64,000 nucleotides of DNA from Somniosus microcephalus. Lineage: Eukaryota. Each line of letters starts with the position of its first letter. Position 1 is the stretch's first letter. Positions 38,467 to 44,349 of the stretch are shown here, one piece after another. The notes under the pieces were generated by a model. The model was not told the DNA's origin. It was given only the letters and a program-made list of their open reading frames with translations, and made no database searches. The stretch is taken from contig CM126207.1 of the NCBI GenBank assembly GCA_052327205.1, forward strand, positions 151,776,001 to 151,840,000. Reading direction: 5' to 3'. Made by a program: the position numbers and the translations under genes.

Positions 38467-38678
38467 GCACCTTCCCTAAGGCCTTCACATCCATCCTAGA
38501 GTGTGCTGCCCAGAATTGGAAGCAGTACTCCAGTTGGGGTCGAGCCAGTGTTTTTTACAGGTTCATCATTTCCACACTTTTGTACTCTATACCACCATTC
38601 ATGAAGCCCAAGATCCCATAAGAATTTTCAAATGCTTTCTCAACCTGGCCTACCACCTTCAACGATTTGTGCACACAT
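38467..38678 (-). mobile_element. CR1 LINE fragment (continues at 44412-44670)
   Basis: Minus-strand CR1 ORF2 C-terminal-like sequence (LEYCFQFWAAH..MDVKALGKVQ). It joins the 44412 segment across the LINE insertion. Confidence 0.65.
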
Positions 38679-39573
38679 TTGGGGGCTTGTGCCAAAATTG
38701 GGAGAGCTGTCCCACAGACTAGTCAAGCAACAGCCTGACATAGTCATAATTACCGAATCATACCTTACAACCAATGTCCCAGACACCACCATCACCATCC
38801 CTGGGTATGTCCTGTCCCACCGGCAGGACAGACCCACCACAGGCGGTGGCACCGTGGTATACAGTCGGAAGGGAGTAGCCCTGGGAGTCCTCAACATTGA
38901 CTCAGGACCCCATGAGGTCTCATGGCATCAAGTCAAACATGGGCAAGGAAACCTCCTGCTAATTACTGTTATGTTCATTAATAACTAAACATTCTTATTA
39001 TGAACACAGCTAGCTTTTGCTAGTTACTTTATTGAGCCATGTGGACTAGGTACAGCATCTTGTAGAGATGCAGCATTGTGCCATCTTGACTGTTGCCTTC
39101 TGGGTAGCCTAGCCTCATGGGTAATGTAGTCTAAATATATATATAGCTGGGTAGTGTAGTTTTATAAATACAGCTCTATACAGCCGCACTGCTCCACCTA
39201 GTGTCCACCACAGAATGACATGCTAGTGATCACTGCATCCCCCTTTCTTTGGAGGTTTAACAAAATCAATATCAATCAACTTTCAAGAAAACAATAAAGA
39301 TAATATCAGTAACAATTTTGTTAGTGCTCTATAAACATAAACATTTTCAAAACAGTCACCACATTTTCAAAGCTTTACATTGTACTCAAAGATTAAGTCT
39401 ATCAGGCTCTTTTACTTCACGTGTGGATCTTCACAACATGGGTAAGTCTGATGTGTCTTCATGAGATTGTTCTGGTGGTGAATGACAAGATGCAGTTGCG
39501 GCATTGTCATCAATCTGCTCTTGTATAGATCGAGGTCTCCTTGCGATCTTTGCTTGGAGAGGGTTTCAGTGTT

Positions 39574-39979
39574 TCCTTCACTCTTCATGCCATAACTCTC
39601 AATGTAGTCAATGCACTCTCGAAAAACTGCTGGCAGCTGGATCCCATCATTCAGCATAGTCCTCTCAGCAGCCTCGGCTAATGGAACACCAAAGATTGGC
39701 CTGAGGGAAGAAGGAGTATCCACCGGAACTGCTTCCTGCTCTGCTGCAGGCTTCTTCTTTTTCTTTTTCTCTTTCCACTGCTTAACAACATCTGCTGCGG
39801 TTATATCTTTGGACTTTTCCTCCTTGTGTTTTTCCTCTTTGTGCTTTTCTTCCTTTGGCTTCTCTTTGACCTGAAAGTCTTTTTCTTTCTTCTTGGAGAA
39901 ACTAGGCTTTTTGAAGACATGGATACCCTTTGGCCTTTTCATCCTTGATGGGCTCTCTGCTTCATCACCTGAGTCATCT
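39574..39979 (-). pseudogene. RALBP1: Captured fragment of RalA-binding protein 1 (RLIP76): Lys-rich region and start of the RhoGAP domain
   Basis: Translation DSGDEAESPSRMKRPKGIHVFKKPSFSKKKEKDF...KDITAADVVKQWKEKKKKKK...PIFGVPL...LPAVFRECIDYIESYGMKSEG closely matches vertebrate RALBP1 as I recall it. Confidence 0.9.
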
Positions 39980-40266
39980 GGTCTGCTTATGGCACAGTTT
40001 ATACGGTAGACTCTCTTGACCAGTTCTAAGTCTTCAGAAGCTTTGTCACCTAATAGTGAATCAAGTCTTTCAGCCACAACAGAAAACATGAGATGATGCA
40101 CTTTGTCTTTGACTGTAACTTTAAGTCTGCATACATCTAAGCTATCTATTTTCTGTCCATTATAGTTCTTCAGTAGTACTGACTTTTTCTGTATTTTGGG
40201 CTTTTCTTTCATATTGTTAATGTCACTCATACTGATTAAGTTTGCTTTTGTCCCAGTGTCCAGTTT

Positions 40267-40558
40267 CACTGTTGCCTCACAGCACCAGGGACCCGGGTTC
40301 GAATCCGGCCTCGGGTGACTGTCTGTGTGGAGTTTGCACATTCTCCCCGTGTTTGCGTGGGTTTTCTCCGGGTGCTCCGGTTTCCTCCCACAGTCCAAAG
40401 ATGTGCGGGTTAGGTTGATTGGCTATGATAAATTGACCCTTAGTGTTAGGGGGATTAAATACGTGGGGTTACGGGGATAGGGTGGGATATGTGTCAGTGC
40501 AGGCTCGATGGGCCGAAATGGCCTCTATCTGCACTGTGGGGTTTCTGTGATTCTGTGA
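40267..40558 (+). mobile_element. HE1/V-SINE-type SINE inserted in the Gypsy protease
   Basis: Same core and tail as 5260-5599. Splits ...VTF/KLDTG. Confidence 0.88.
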
Positions 40559-42861
40559 ATGTAACTAATGCTCCATTTATCTGCAGCGGGATCATCCATT
40601 TGTCCTCTTTTACTGCATTAACTTTATGTTCAGCATTGTCTATTTCTGAGGGCTGCACATTTTCTGTATCTTTTTTGATATCGTCACATGCCACCATTCC
40701 TACAAAAAATGTCTCACTTAAATCAGTGTCCTCAATCACATTAACTCGTTGCCCTTTCATCGTTTTTACTTTTGAAAAGCATTGTTTGGCAAAGTGATTC
40801 TTTCCATTACACTTTGTGCACATTTTTCCAAACGCTGGGCATTGTCTTAACTGGTGTTTGTAACCACAGCGTTTACAATTAAAAATTTCATCCTCCGATT
40901 GCTTTTCATTTCTGTTCTGCCCATGTTTCTTCCCCTTGTAGGACACAGCACCGACAGCAGCATTATCACTCATTACATTCGCATCATTATTGATTTCACT
41001 GAAAGTCTTCGCGTGATTTCGAGCTAGCTCGCTGGCTTTGCATATTTTCACTGCATTTTCCAAATTTAGTTCGGTTTCCCTCAACAGACGTTCCCTGACT
41101 TTTTTATCATGAATACCAAACACAATCTGGGCAATAATCATGGATGCTTTGAGCTCAGAGAAATTACATGTCTGTGCTTTCAGCTTTCAGTTTCAGATCA
41201 GTTATAAAGCTAACAAAAGTCTCATTTTGTTGCTGTGTCCGAGAACGGAAGATGTATCTTTCATACGTCTCATTCTTTTTGGGAGAGCAATGTGCATCAA
41301 ATTCTTTTAGCACATCTTCTAATTTTTCTCTGTTCTCCGCTGGATTAAATACAAATGTATTAAATACCTCTATTGCCTGTGGGCCTGCAACTGTAAGCAG
41401 CAACGCTATCTTCCTTGCGTCTGGCTTCGTACTGAATCCGATGGCTGCAATGTAGAGTTCGAATTGTTGTTTAAAAATCCGCCAATTGTAGTCGACATTT
41501 CCCTCGAGATTCAAACCTCCTGGTGGCTTCAAATTCTCCATGTCGCTTTTCACAATTTTCAGCAGATCTTCACCATGTTATGTTCATTAATAACTAGACA
41601 TTCTTATTATGAACACAGCTAGCTTTTGCTAGTTACTTTATTGAGCCATGTGGACTAGGTACAGCATCTTGTAGAGATGCAGCATTGTGCTCCTGTGTGC
41701 CTTCTGGGTAGCCTAGCCTCATGGGTAATGTAGTCTTAATATATATATAGCTGGGTAGTGTAATTTTATACATACAGCTCTATACAGCTCCACTGCTCCA
41801 CCTAGTGTCCACCACAGAATGACATGTTATTGATCACTACAATTACCACCTACCGCCCTCCCTCAGCTGATGAATCAGTACTCCTTCATGTTGAACACCA
41901 ATTGGAAGAAGCACTGAGAGTAGCAAGGGCACAAAATGCCCTCTGGGTGGGGAAATTCAATGTCCATCATCAAGAGTGGCTCGGTAGCACCACAACTGAC
42001 CGCGCTGGCCGAGTCCTAAAGGATATAGTTGCCAGACTGGGTCTGCGACAGGTGGTAAGAGAACCAACAAGAGGGAAAAACCTACTTGATCTCATCCTCA
42101 CCAATCTAACTGTTGCAGATGCATCTGTCCATGACAGCATTGGTGGAAGTGACCACCGCACAGTCCTTGTGGAGACGAAGTCCCGTCTTCATGTTGAGGG
42201 TACCCTCCACCGTGTTGTGTGGCACTACCATGGTGCTAAATGGGACAGATTTTGAACAGATCTGGCAACTCAAAACTGGGCATCCATGAGGCACTGTGGG
42301 CCATCAGCAGCAGCAGAATTGTATTCAACCCCAATCTGTAACCTCATGGCCTGGCATATCCCTCACTCTACCATTACCATCAAGCCGGGAGATCAACCCT
42401 GGTTTAACGAAGAGTGCAGGAGAGCATGCCGAGAACAGCACCAGGCATACCGAAAAATGAGGTGTCAACCTGGTGAGGCTACAACACAGGACCACTTGCA
42501 TGCCAAACAACGGAAGCAACATGCGATAGACAGAGCTAAGCGATCTCACAACCATCGGATCAAATCAAAGCTCTGCAGTCCTGCCACATCCAGTCGTGAG
42601 TGGTGGTGGACAATTAAACAGTTAACAGGAGGAGGAGGCTCCAAAAATATCCCCATCCTCAATGATGGTGGAGCCCAGCACGTGAGTGCAAAAGACAAGG
42701 CTGAAGCGTTTGCAACTATCTTCAGCCAGAAGTGCCGAGTGGATGATTAATCTCGACCTCCTCCTGAGGTCCCCAGTGTCACAGATGCCAGTCTTCAGCC
42801 CATTCAATTCACTCCACGTGATGTCAAGAAATGGCTGAAGACACTGGATACTGCAAAGGCT

Positions 42862-44349
42862 ATGGGCCCTGACAATATTCCGGCAATAGTACTGAAGACT
42901 TGTGCTCCAGAACCTGCTGCACCCCTAGCCAAGCTGTTCCAGTATAGCTACAACACTGGCATCTACCCGGCAATGTGGAAAATTGCCCAAGTATGTCCTG
43001 CCTACAAAAAGCAGGACAAATCCAACCCGGCCAATTACCGTCCCATCAGCCTACTCACAATCATCAGCAAAGTGATGGAAGGTGTCGTCGACAGTGCTAT
43101 CAAGCGGCACTTACTCAGCAATAACCTGCTAACTGACGCCCAGTTTGGGTTCCGCCAGGGTCACTCAGCTCCTGACCTCATTACAGCCTTGGTCCAAACA
43201 TGGACAAAAGAGCTGAACTCAAGAGGTGAGGTGAGAGTGACTGCCCTTGACATCAAGGCAGCATTTGATCGAGTGTGGCATCAAGGAGCCCTAGCAAAAC
43301 TGAAGTCAATGGGAATCAAGGGGAAAATTCTCCATTGGTTGGATTCATACCTAGCACAAAGGAAGTTGGCTGTGGTTGTTGGAGGTCATTCATCTCAATC
43401 ACATGACATCACTGCAGGAGTTCCTCAGGGCAGTGTCCTAGGCCCAACCATCTTCAGCTGTTTCATCAATGAACTTCCCTCCATCATAAGGTCAGAAGTG
43501 GGGATGTTCGCTGATGATTGCACACTGTTCAGCACCATTCGAGACTCATCAGATACTGACGCAGTCCGTGTCCATATGCAGCTGGACCTGGACAACATTC
43601 AGACTTGGGCTGACAAGTGGCAAGTAACATTCGCACCACACAAGTGCCAGGCAATGACCATCTCCAACAAGCGAGACTCTAACCATCTCCCCTTGACATT
43701 CAATGGCATTACCATCGCTGAATCCCCCACTATCAACATCCTGGGGGTTACCATTGATCAGAAACTGAACTGGACCAGCCATATAAATACTGTGGCTACA
43801 AGAGCAGGCCAGAGGCTGGGACTTCTGCAGCGAGTGTCTCACCTCCTAACTCCCCAAAGCCTTTCCACCATCTACAAGGCACAAGTCAGGAGTGTGATGG
43901 AATACTCTCCACTTGCCTGGATGAGTGCAGCTCCAACAATACTCAAGAAGCTCGACACTATTCAGGATAAAGCAGCCCGCTTGATTGGCACTCCATCCAC
44001 CACCTTCAACATTCACTCCCTCCACCACCGGCGCACTGTGGCTGCAGTGTGTACCATCTACAAGATGCATTGCAGCAACTCGCCAAAGCTCCATCAACAG
44101 CACCTTCCAAACCCGCAACCTCTACCACTTAGAAGGACAAGGGCAGCAGACGCATGGGAACATCACCACCTACAAGTTCCCCTCCAAGCCAGACACCATC
44201 CTGACTTGGACCTGTATCGCTGTTCCTTCACTGTCGCTGTGCCAAAATCTTGGAGCTCCTTTCCTAACAGCATTGTGGGTGTACCTACACCATATGGACT
44301 GCAGCAGTTCAAGAAGGCGGCTTACCACCATCTTCTCAAGGGCAATTAG
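42862..44349 (+). pseudogene. LINE reverse transcriptase domain (longest open segment of ORF2)
   Basis: 495-aa ORF with non-LTR RT motifs GVPQGSVLGP and FADD. Confidence 0.88.

What the first reader, a model, noticed from the sequence alone, without database searches (positions are those of the whole stretch)
39412..40266. Gypsy element that replaced RT-RH-IN with an in-frame piece of host RALBP1
Seen: protease (KLDTG...LELVKRVYRINCAIS) reads without a stop into ~135 codons of RALBP1-like sequence (39979-39574). It then returns to the element's own IN-end remnant, PPT and LTR; both LTRs and a 5-bp TSD are intact. Knowledge: LTR elements can capture host mRNA by template switching. RALBP1/RLIP76 is a Ral effector with a RhoGAP domain. 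Inference: a transduced Gag-PR-RALBP1 chimera that transposed as a unit, resembling retroviral oncogene capture. The piece is the Lys-rich region and stops at the start of the GAP domain, so it is not catalytically complete.
Basis: partly seen in the sequence, partly recalled or inferred. Interest (0 to 1): 0.8.

Follow-up and report, generated by a model that had tools for sequence, protein, structure and literature searches.

The report
Shark retrotransposon amplifying a RALBP1 fragment
A jumping gene in a probable shark genome has two pieces of the host gene RALBP1 where its copying enzymes used to be, likely picked up from the messenger RNA, and has spread to about 3,000 copies, but the host piece mutates like a passenger rather than like a working gene.

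Summary
Real, and bigger than reported. The window holds one dead copy of a non-autonomous Gypsy family with about 3,000 copies (2,356 and 2,317 exact junction matches). The autonomous parent is in the same genome; 2.5 kb of its RT-RNaseH-IN is replaced by 445 nt of RALBP1. The capture is two pieces, not one: 399 nt from inside one coding exon and the last 55 nt of the last exon, 38.5 kb apart in the gene, joined at a 7-nt microhomology. Only one of three junctions is in frame, and the piece ends three codons before the GAP arginine finger. RALBP1 codons show no purifying selection in 120 copies, so 'oncogene capture' is not supported. The chimera is transcribed in an RNA run of a holder organism. 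This copy has a frameshift, a SINE and a clipped primer site. An unrelated LTR family captured spliced RALBP1 independently. The mechanism is known (LTR-mediated retroposition; maize Bs1); the scale is unusual. The scan noted similar captures of other genes on other DNA of this genome, but not this RALBP1 family.

The parts
41842..41846 (-). 5-bp target-site duplication, upstream copy
   Evidence: same five bases flank both LTRs
41576..41841 (-). 5' LTR, 266 bp, TG...CA
41572..41575 (-). remnant of the primer-binding site; shortened in this copy compared with nearly all other copies parsed
40559..41541 (-). gag (with zinc knuckle) and first residues of protease; frameshift near 41190 in this copy
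   Evidence: (zf-CCHC weak, E 0.02-0.05); 922 identities and 49 mismatches to a parent copy
40269..40558 (+). later SINE insertion, opposite strand, private to this copy (tRNA-type SINE; family name HE1/V-SINE is recalled, not tested)
   Evidence: absent from the 29 other closest copies; 290 extra bases; parts repeat elsewhere in the window
39974..40268 (-). aspartic protease, DTG active site to the end of the domain
   Evidence: Pfam gag-asp_proteas E 0.02 here, 1e-5 in the parent; 281 identities and 12 mismatches to a parent copy
39575..39973 (-). captured RALBP1 piece 1: inner part of the second coding exon (host residues 93-230), in frame with protease, one 15-nt repeat unit shorter than the host
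39575..39581 (-). 7-nt microhomology shared by the two RALBP1 exons; the internal joint
   Evidence: chance 0.001 in 200,000 random joints
39527..39581 (-). captured RALBP1 piece 2: last 55 nt of the last exon up to the first base of the host stop codon, read out of frame
   Evidence: 55 of 55 identical to host
39386..39528 (-). remnant of the integrase C-terminal tail, read out of frame; the fusion frame stops at 39414-39412
   Evidence: (parent polyprotein runs through it)
39238..39250 (-). polypurine tract
38967..39237 (-). 3' LTR, 271 bp
38962..38966 (-). 5-bp target-site duplication, downstream copy
38605..44349 (+). older LINE (endonuclease and RT frames) into whose endonuclease region the element inserted; not part of the element
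   Evidence: Pfam Exo_endo_phos_2 E 1.6e-12; ORFs

Best explanation
This is a dead copy of a non-autonomous Gypsy LTR family of about 3,000 copies in which two RALBP1 exon pieces replace RT-RNaseH-IN, likely by reverse-transcriptase template switching onto co-packaged RALBP1 mRNA, with the host piece likely riding along as a neutral passenger. Shown: the replacement, the three junctions, the parent, the spread with new TSDs, the lack of codon-level constraint. Inferred: RT left the element RNA at a 3-5-nt match just after protease, copied RALBP1 mRNA and rejoined the element at a 2-nt match in the integrase tail; the 1.24-kb middle of the mRNA was skipped at a 7-nt match, in the same round or in a lost intermediate. 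The product kept both LTRs, primer site, polypurine tract, gag and protease, and would be copied by the RT and integrase of the parent family in trans.
For: Parent found: 23 of 30 loci examined from 69 matches run from the same protease end straight into RT; Pfam RT, RNase H and integrase above cut-off; 2,524-2,525 nt replaced in 5 parents measured. Both pieces are exonic and sense, 38.5 kb apart in DNA but about 1.24 kb in mRNA. Microhomology at all three joints, no poly(A) and no TSD around the insert; 7 nt has chance 0.001. 2,356 and 2,317 exact junction matches, controls 0. Exact 5-bp TSD in 20 of 26 copies with both LTRs parsed out of 60 taken in order along one contig and in 17 of 24 of the 30 closest. 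Gag-PR of all 54 chimeras in the tree nests with 9 of 28 parents on one 100/100 branch, and 42 of 74 sites that vary among chimeras also vary among parents, which fits continued exchange with helper RNA. RALBP1 codons: shared variants 23 N / 7 S against singletons 153 N / 53 S, p = 1.0. An unrelated LTR family holds spliced RALBP1 exon joints, so this mRNA does get captured here. The pattern matches Tan et al. 2016 (PMC5131818, passages).
Against: No splice junction lies inside the capture: each piece is within one exon, so an mRNA template is inferred, not shown. No intermediate with a longer capture was found. The 2-nt and 3-nt matches are weak on their own (chance about 0.18 and 0.07). The selection test has modest power: 30 shared variants, some of them recurrent CpG changes. 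The family reached thousands of copies and is transcribed, which a neutral model explains only by luck or by the small size of the element.
Confidence: 0.8

Rival explanations
1. Selected cargo: the Gag-PR-RALBP1 fusion, or the basic RALBP1 segment cut from it, helps the element (membrane or RNA binding, trafficking), which is why the family outgrew its closest parents.
For: The 5' junction is in frame; 6 of 60 copies taken in order and 7 of the 30 closest keep one frame from Gag to the tail. The piece includes the polybasic stretch and the R-Ras-binding stretch described for human RLIP76 (PMC8124665, passages). Sense transcripts are present. About 3,000 copies against 69 matches for the nearest parent protease end (the two patterns differ in strictness).
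Against: No constraint on RALBP1 codons, while Gag and PR show some (shared/singleton N:S ratio 0.57, p 0.03; 0.32, p 0.05; weaker without CpG sites). One in-frame junction of three is what chance gives. The wider parent family is as large (4,527 matches at the RT start).
Confidence: 0.1
2. DNA-level origin: a RALBP1 cDNA made by a LINE was patched into a broken element, or a retrocopy inserted into pol and was later trimmed by deletions on both sides.
For: LINEs are abundant here; break repair by capture of reverse-transcribed mRNA is reported (PMC4516963, search listing only); microhomology also marks end joining; no splice junction is kept.
Against: pol is replaced, not interrupted; no poly(A) or insert TSD; needs two or three further deletions with no intermediates left; no free RALBP1 retrocopy with the Ral-binding domain was found (1 match among 51 candidates scored).
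Confidence: 0.07
3. Classical oncogene-type route: an element sitting upstream of or inside RALBP1 made read-through RNA that was joined to the exon, and the 3' end was restored later.
For: A copy of the family lies 24-28 kb upstream of the first coding exon on the same strand.
Against: That copy is itself a finished chimera with near-identical LTRs (1 mismatch), so it is young; with about 3,000 copies one in 150 kb has a chance of about 7%. The 5' junction lies about 30 nt inside the exon, not at its splice acceptor.
Confidence: 0.03

Closest known systems
LTR-mediated retrocopies in animals (Tan et al. 2016, PMC5131818; 12 passages read)
   Same: Partial mRNA replaces part of the internal ORF; microsimilarity at the switch points; both LTRs kept; further rounds of copying as a non-autonomous element; mostly sense transcription.
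   Different: [quoted passage not shown] Here there is a third, internal jump within the same mRNA. Sharks were not among the species named in the passages read.
Maize Bs1 (passages in PMC5131818 and PMC13317346; original papers not read)
   Same: Host gene fragments in an LTR element in place of pol; all copies share the switch points.
   Different: Bs1 has 1-5 copies and pieces of three genes, and is described as a new chimeric gene; here one gene, thousands of copies and no codon constraint.
Crocodilian ERVs carrying KIT-ligand or nectin3 (PMC4299795; 12 passages read) and acutely transforming retroviruses
   Same: Vertebrate LTR element with captured host mRNA, multiplied afterwards.
   Different: Those are retroviruses with whole or near-whole ORFs under purifying selection; this is a Gypsy element without env, carrying a non-catalytic fragment without selection.
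TR-GAG-type non-autonomous elements of plants (search listing only; definition recalled)
   Same: Non-autonomous LTR element that keeps gag, with or without protease, and lacks RT and IN.
   Different: Here the loss of pol came with a host-gene capture.

Membership tests
Ty3/Gypsy LTR retrotransposon (parent) | Domain order PR-RT-RH-IN | tested here: met
   Pfam on a parent copy: protease 3-86, RT 189-344, RNase H 410-541, integrase 647-803
Ty3/Gypsy LTR retrotransposon (parent) | LTRs TG...CA, primer site, polypurine tract, short TSD | tested here: met
Ty3/Gypsy LTR retrotransposon (parent) | Placement in a named clade by RT phylogeny | not tested
   no reference RT set was aligned
LTR-mediated retrocopy (Tan et al. 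2016) | Internal ORF replaced, not interrupted, by host sequence | tested here: met
   2,524-2,525 nt replaced by 445 nt
LTR-mediated retrocopy (Tan et al. 2016) | Microsimilarity at the switch points | tested here: met
   3-5 nt, 7 nt and 2 nt; only the 7-nt and 5-nt matches are unlikely by chance
LTR-mediated retrocopy (Tan et al. 2016) | Intron loss showing an mRNA template | tested here: inconclusive
   each piece lies within one exon; the jump over 38.5 kb of gene fits mRNA, but no splice junction is kept
LTR-mediated retrocopy (Tan et al. 2016) | No poly(A) tail and no TSD around the insert | tested here: met
LTR-mediated retrocopy (Tan et al. 2016) | Further retrotransposition with shared junctions | tested here: met
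Retroviral oncogene capture | Captured coding region kept functional and under selection | tested here: not met
   23 N / 7 S shared against 153 N / 53 S singletons; arginine finger and Ral-binding domain absent
Retroviral oncogene capture | Protein made and acting on cell growth | not testable with these tools
   RNA only; no protein data
Circular-RNA capture (earlier notes on this genome) | Back-splice order of exons | tested here: not met
   the two pieces are in forward order and joined inside exons

The most novel reading that the evidence does not exclude
The captured basic RALBP1 segment, or the RNA that carries it, gave the element an edge or now acts on the host: some 3,000 LTR-driven copies make RNA that outnumbers the host's own exon about twentyfold in one library, enough to feed small RNAs against RALBP1 or to make a dominant-negative fragment that binds membrane or R-Ras.
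Probability: 0.1. Interest if true: 0.75.

Novelty: new member of a known kind. Interest (0 to 1): 0.45.

Why it matters
It is a clean vertebrate record of LTR-mediated gene capture, with host gene, parent element, all three junctions and thousands of descendants in one genome, at a scale far above the published cases read here. Two unrelated LTR families captured the same mRNA and share four alleles that today's host gene lacks, so the elements likely preserve the older host sequence. About 3,000 transcribed copies would also distort RALBP1 read counts and annotation in these species. If the cargo proved functional, it would be a Gypsy counterpart of oncogene capture.

Tried and rejected
Chimeric assembly: rejected; thousands of copies on many contigs, and contigs of another organism bridge the 5' and middle junctions. 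Single later insertion into an element: rejected; no insert TSD, shared junctions. Circular-RNA origin: rejected, forward order. Descent from the second RALBP1-carrying family: unlikely; none of its 7 loci examined holds the last-exon piece, 0 of the 4 that cover the site have the focal K102R change, and its LTRs do not match. Intermediates: a pattern continuing past the middle joint gave the host plus 7 loci, none with this element's LTR or gag; a pattern upstream of piece 2 gave only the host; the Ral-binding-domain family gave only the host. The upstream neighbour as founder: rejected, young LTRs. Rfam at E <= 1 gave only three matches far below cut-off. The run index listed no RNA holder; two unindexed RNA runs were laid instead. 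A test for missing stops and frameshifts among shared RALBP1 variants had too little power (1 shared CpG stop; shared deletions of 27 and 6 nt in frame). No absolute date is given: the only shark rate read is per generation in another species (PMC10587355, abstract). My exon model had boundary slips of 2-3 nt at two later exons; it affects only the 1.24-kb figure, by a base or so. Literature: searches (RALBP1 + retrotransposon) listed no paper on this element or on gene capture by shark LTR elements; only titles and abstract openings were seen, the library lacks most subscription papers, and no supplements were read.

Full report
Observation. On the minus strand the window holds an LTR element from 41841 to 38967 with a 5-bp TSD, inserted in the endonuclease region of an older LINE, beside a 21-bp satellite array. 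The frame from KLDTG is open for 284 codons. The RALBP1 call is right: PDB 2mbg E 1e-17, 83-88% identity to cartilaginous-fish RALBP1. That the organism is a shark is inferred from these matches and from earlier notes; the genome has 6.4 Gb.

Host gene. The Ral-binding-domain family gave one match among 51 candidates scored, at G000:C7:32.31 Mb. In 150 kb fetched around it the nine coding exons were mapped. The element matches two places: window 39973-39575 matches the second coding exon at 94% (with a 15-nt repeat unit missing), and 39581-39527 matches the end of the last exon in 55 of 55 bases. The two are 38.5 kb apart in the gene and about 1.24 kb apart in the mRNA model. They overlap in a 7-nt sequence present in both exons; random joints reach 7 nt in 0.1% of 200,000 trials. 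Piece 1 starts about 30 nt after the splice acceptor and ends 17 nt before the donor, so no splice junction is kept. It ends at host residue 230; the arginine finger follows three codons later (human Arg232 per PMC8124665, passages).

Parent. A pattern for the protease end followed by non-RALBP1 bases gave 69 matches; 23 of 30 loci examined run on into RT, and at least 3 are chimeras with small junction changes (part's output was cut). A parent frame has protease, RT, RNase H and integrase in Gypsy order. In 5 parents measured, 2,524-2,525 nt are replaced by 445 nt. The 5' joint shares 3 nt with most parents and 5 nt with 4 of 11; the 3' joint shares 2 nt. Only the 5' joint is in frame; the last-exon piece and the integrase tail are read in other frames. 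The wider parent family has 4,527 exact matches at the RT start.

Spread. Exact 30-mers across the middle and 5' joints occur 2,356 and 2,317 times, controls 0; 46 of 60 copies with the first also have the second, which gives about 3,000. Of 60 copies taken in order along one contig, 26 had both LTRs parsed by strict motifs; 20 of these have an exact 5-bp TSD, and the median LTR-LTR difference is 1.5%. RALBP1 pieces differ by 1.8% between copies and 2.2% from the host. 6 of 60 keep one frame from Gag to the tail. In a Gag-PR tree (54 of 60 chimeras and 28 of 29 parents kept; rows with under 1,000 aligned bases left out; bootstrap not settled) all chimeras sit with 9 parents on one 100/100 branch; 42 of 74 sites that vary among chimeras also vary among parents. 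This fits exchange with co-packaged helper RNA, though recurrent CpG change could add to it.

This copy. It has a frameshift in gag near 41190, a 290-bp SINE directly before the protease active site and a shortened primer site. The SINE is absent from the 29 other closest copies.

Selection. Variants shared by three or more copies were compared with singletons. Gag 61 N / 36 S against 189 / 64 (p 0.03; p 0.18 without CpG sites) and protease 9 / 7 against 80 / 20 (p 0.05) in 60 copies; this may be imported from parents. RALBP1 piece in 120 copies: 23 / 7 against 153 / 53 (p 1.0); tail 13 / 5 against 41 / 9 (p 0.5). The only substitution fixed in the element and absent from host and second family is K102R. 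No constraint on the host codons is seen; power is modest.

Expression and distribution. The index listed holders under organism labels A, B and C at shares 0.36-0.72. In RNA run X23 (organism B, 24% read) depth over the RALBP1 piece is about 135-360 on the likely sense strand against 6-36, apart from a dip at a skipped repeat, with no drop at the middle joint; the host allele at the K102R site and at four other host-specific sites stays under the 5% listing threshold. So most of these reads come from the element. Caveats: organism B may not be this genome's species, host reads near a junction may be clipped, and 19 loose-end rows were not shown. Run X24 also covers the piece, with weaker strand bias. 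Contigs of organism C bridge the 5' and middle joints; one low-depth contig under label D bridges the 5' joint; organism E shows very high depth on protease and none on piece 1, which suggests parent without chimera, though contigs cannot prove absence.

Second capture. Seven further loci carry RALBP1 sequence, including spliced joints of the first three coding exons, without this element's LTR or gag; five of them have other, longer direct repeats; 6 matches for one splice joint genome-wide. One continues in frame into PGK (Pfam E 2e-30) and a VWA domain. Both families share four bases that differ from today's host, so the host likely changed after both captures.

Mechanism and comparison. 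The anatomy matches LTR-mediated retroposition by template switching (PMC5131818, passages) and maize Bs1. It differs from ERV captures under purifying selection (PMC4299795, passages). The steps of capture are inferred; replacement, junctions, parent and spread are shown. Earlier notes of this scan describe other host-gene mosaics in LTR elements of this genome (not checked here beyond using their leads); look-ups by sequence and words found none on this family.

Verdict. A real, highly amplified, apparently neutral capture: new member of a known kind, notable for its copy number and complete record. Interest 0.45.

Noticed in passing
L096-L102 (G000:C7:228.57 Mb, C3:191.90 Mb, C5:207.09 Mb, C8:142.36 Mb, C10:164.74 Mb, C35:98.70 and 108.47 Mb): A second, unrelated family with long direct repeats carries spliced RALBP1 exons followed by other host-like pieces (PGK and a VWA domain by Pfam in L100; further pieces not identified by a call). 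Copies differ in their cargo, which suggests stepwise capture.
   Followed up: partly
G000:C7:32361072-32357713 (L041-L042): A young copy of the chimeric family, with a LINE 3' fragment inserted next to the middle joint, sits 24-28 kb upstream of the host RALBP1 start codon on the same strand.
   Followed up: yes
window 1-38400: Long array of a 21-bp satellite (over 900 units in register), interrupted by other repeats.
   Followed up: no
window 38605-44349: The element inserted into the endonuclease region of a LINE; the two halves of the LINE frame join across the TSD.
   Followed up: partly
L001-L030, L103-L162: LTR length varies from about 260 to 304 bp among copies while the RALBP1 piece stays nearly star-like, which suggests LTR exchange with helper subfamilies.
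   Followed up: partly
host exon, G000:C7:32331455-32331042: Four host bases (three synonymous, one giving Leu where other sharks have Ile) differ from both capturing families, so the elements likely keep the older host allele.
   Followed up: yes
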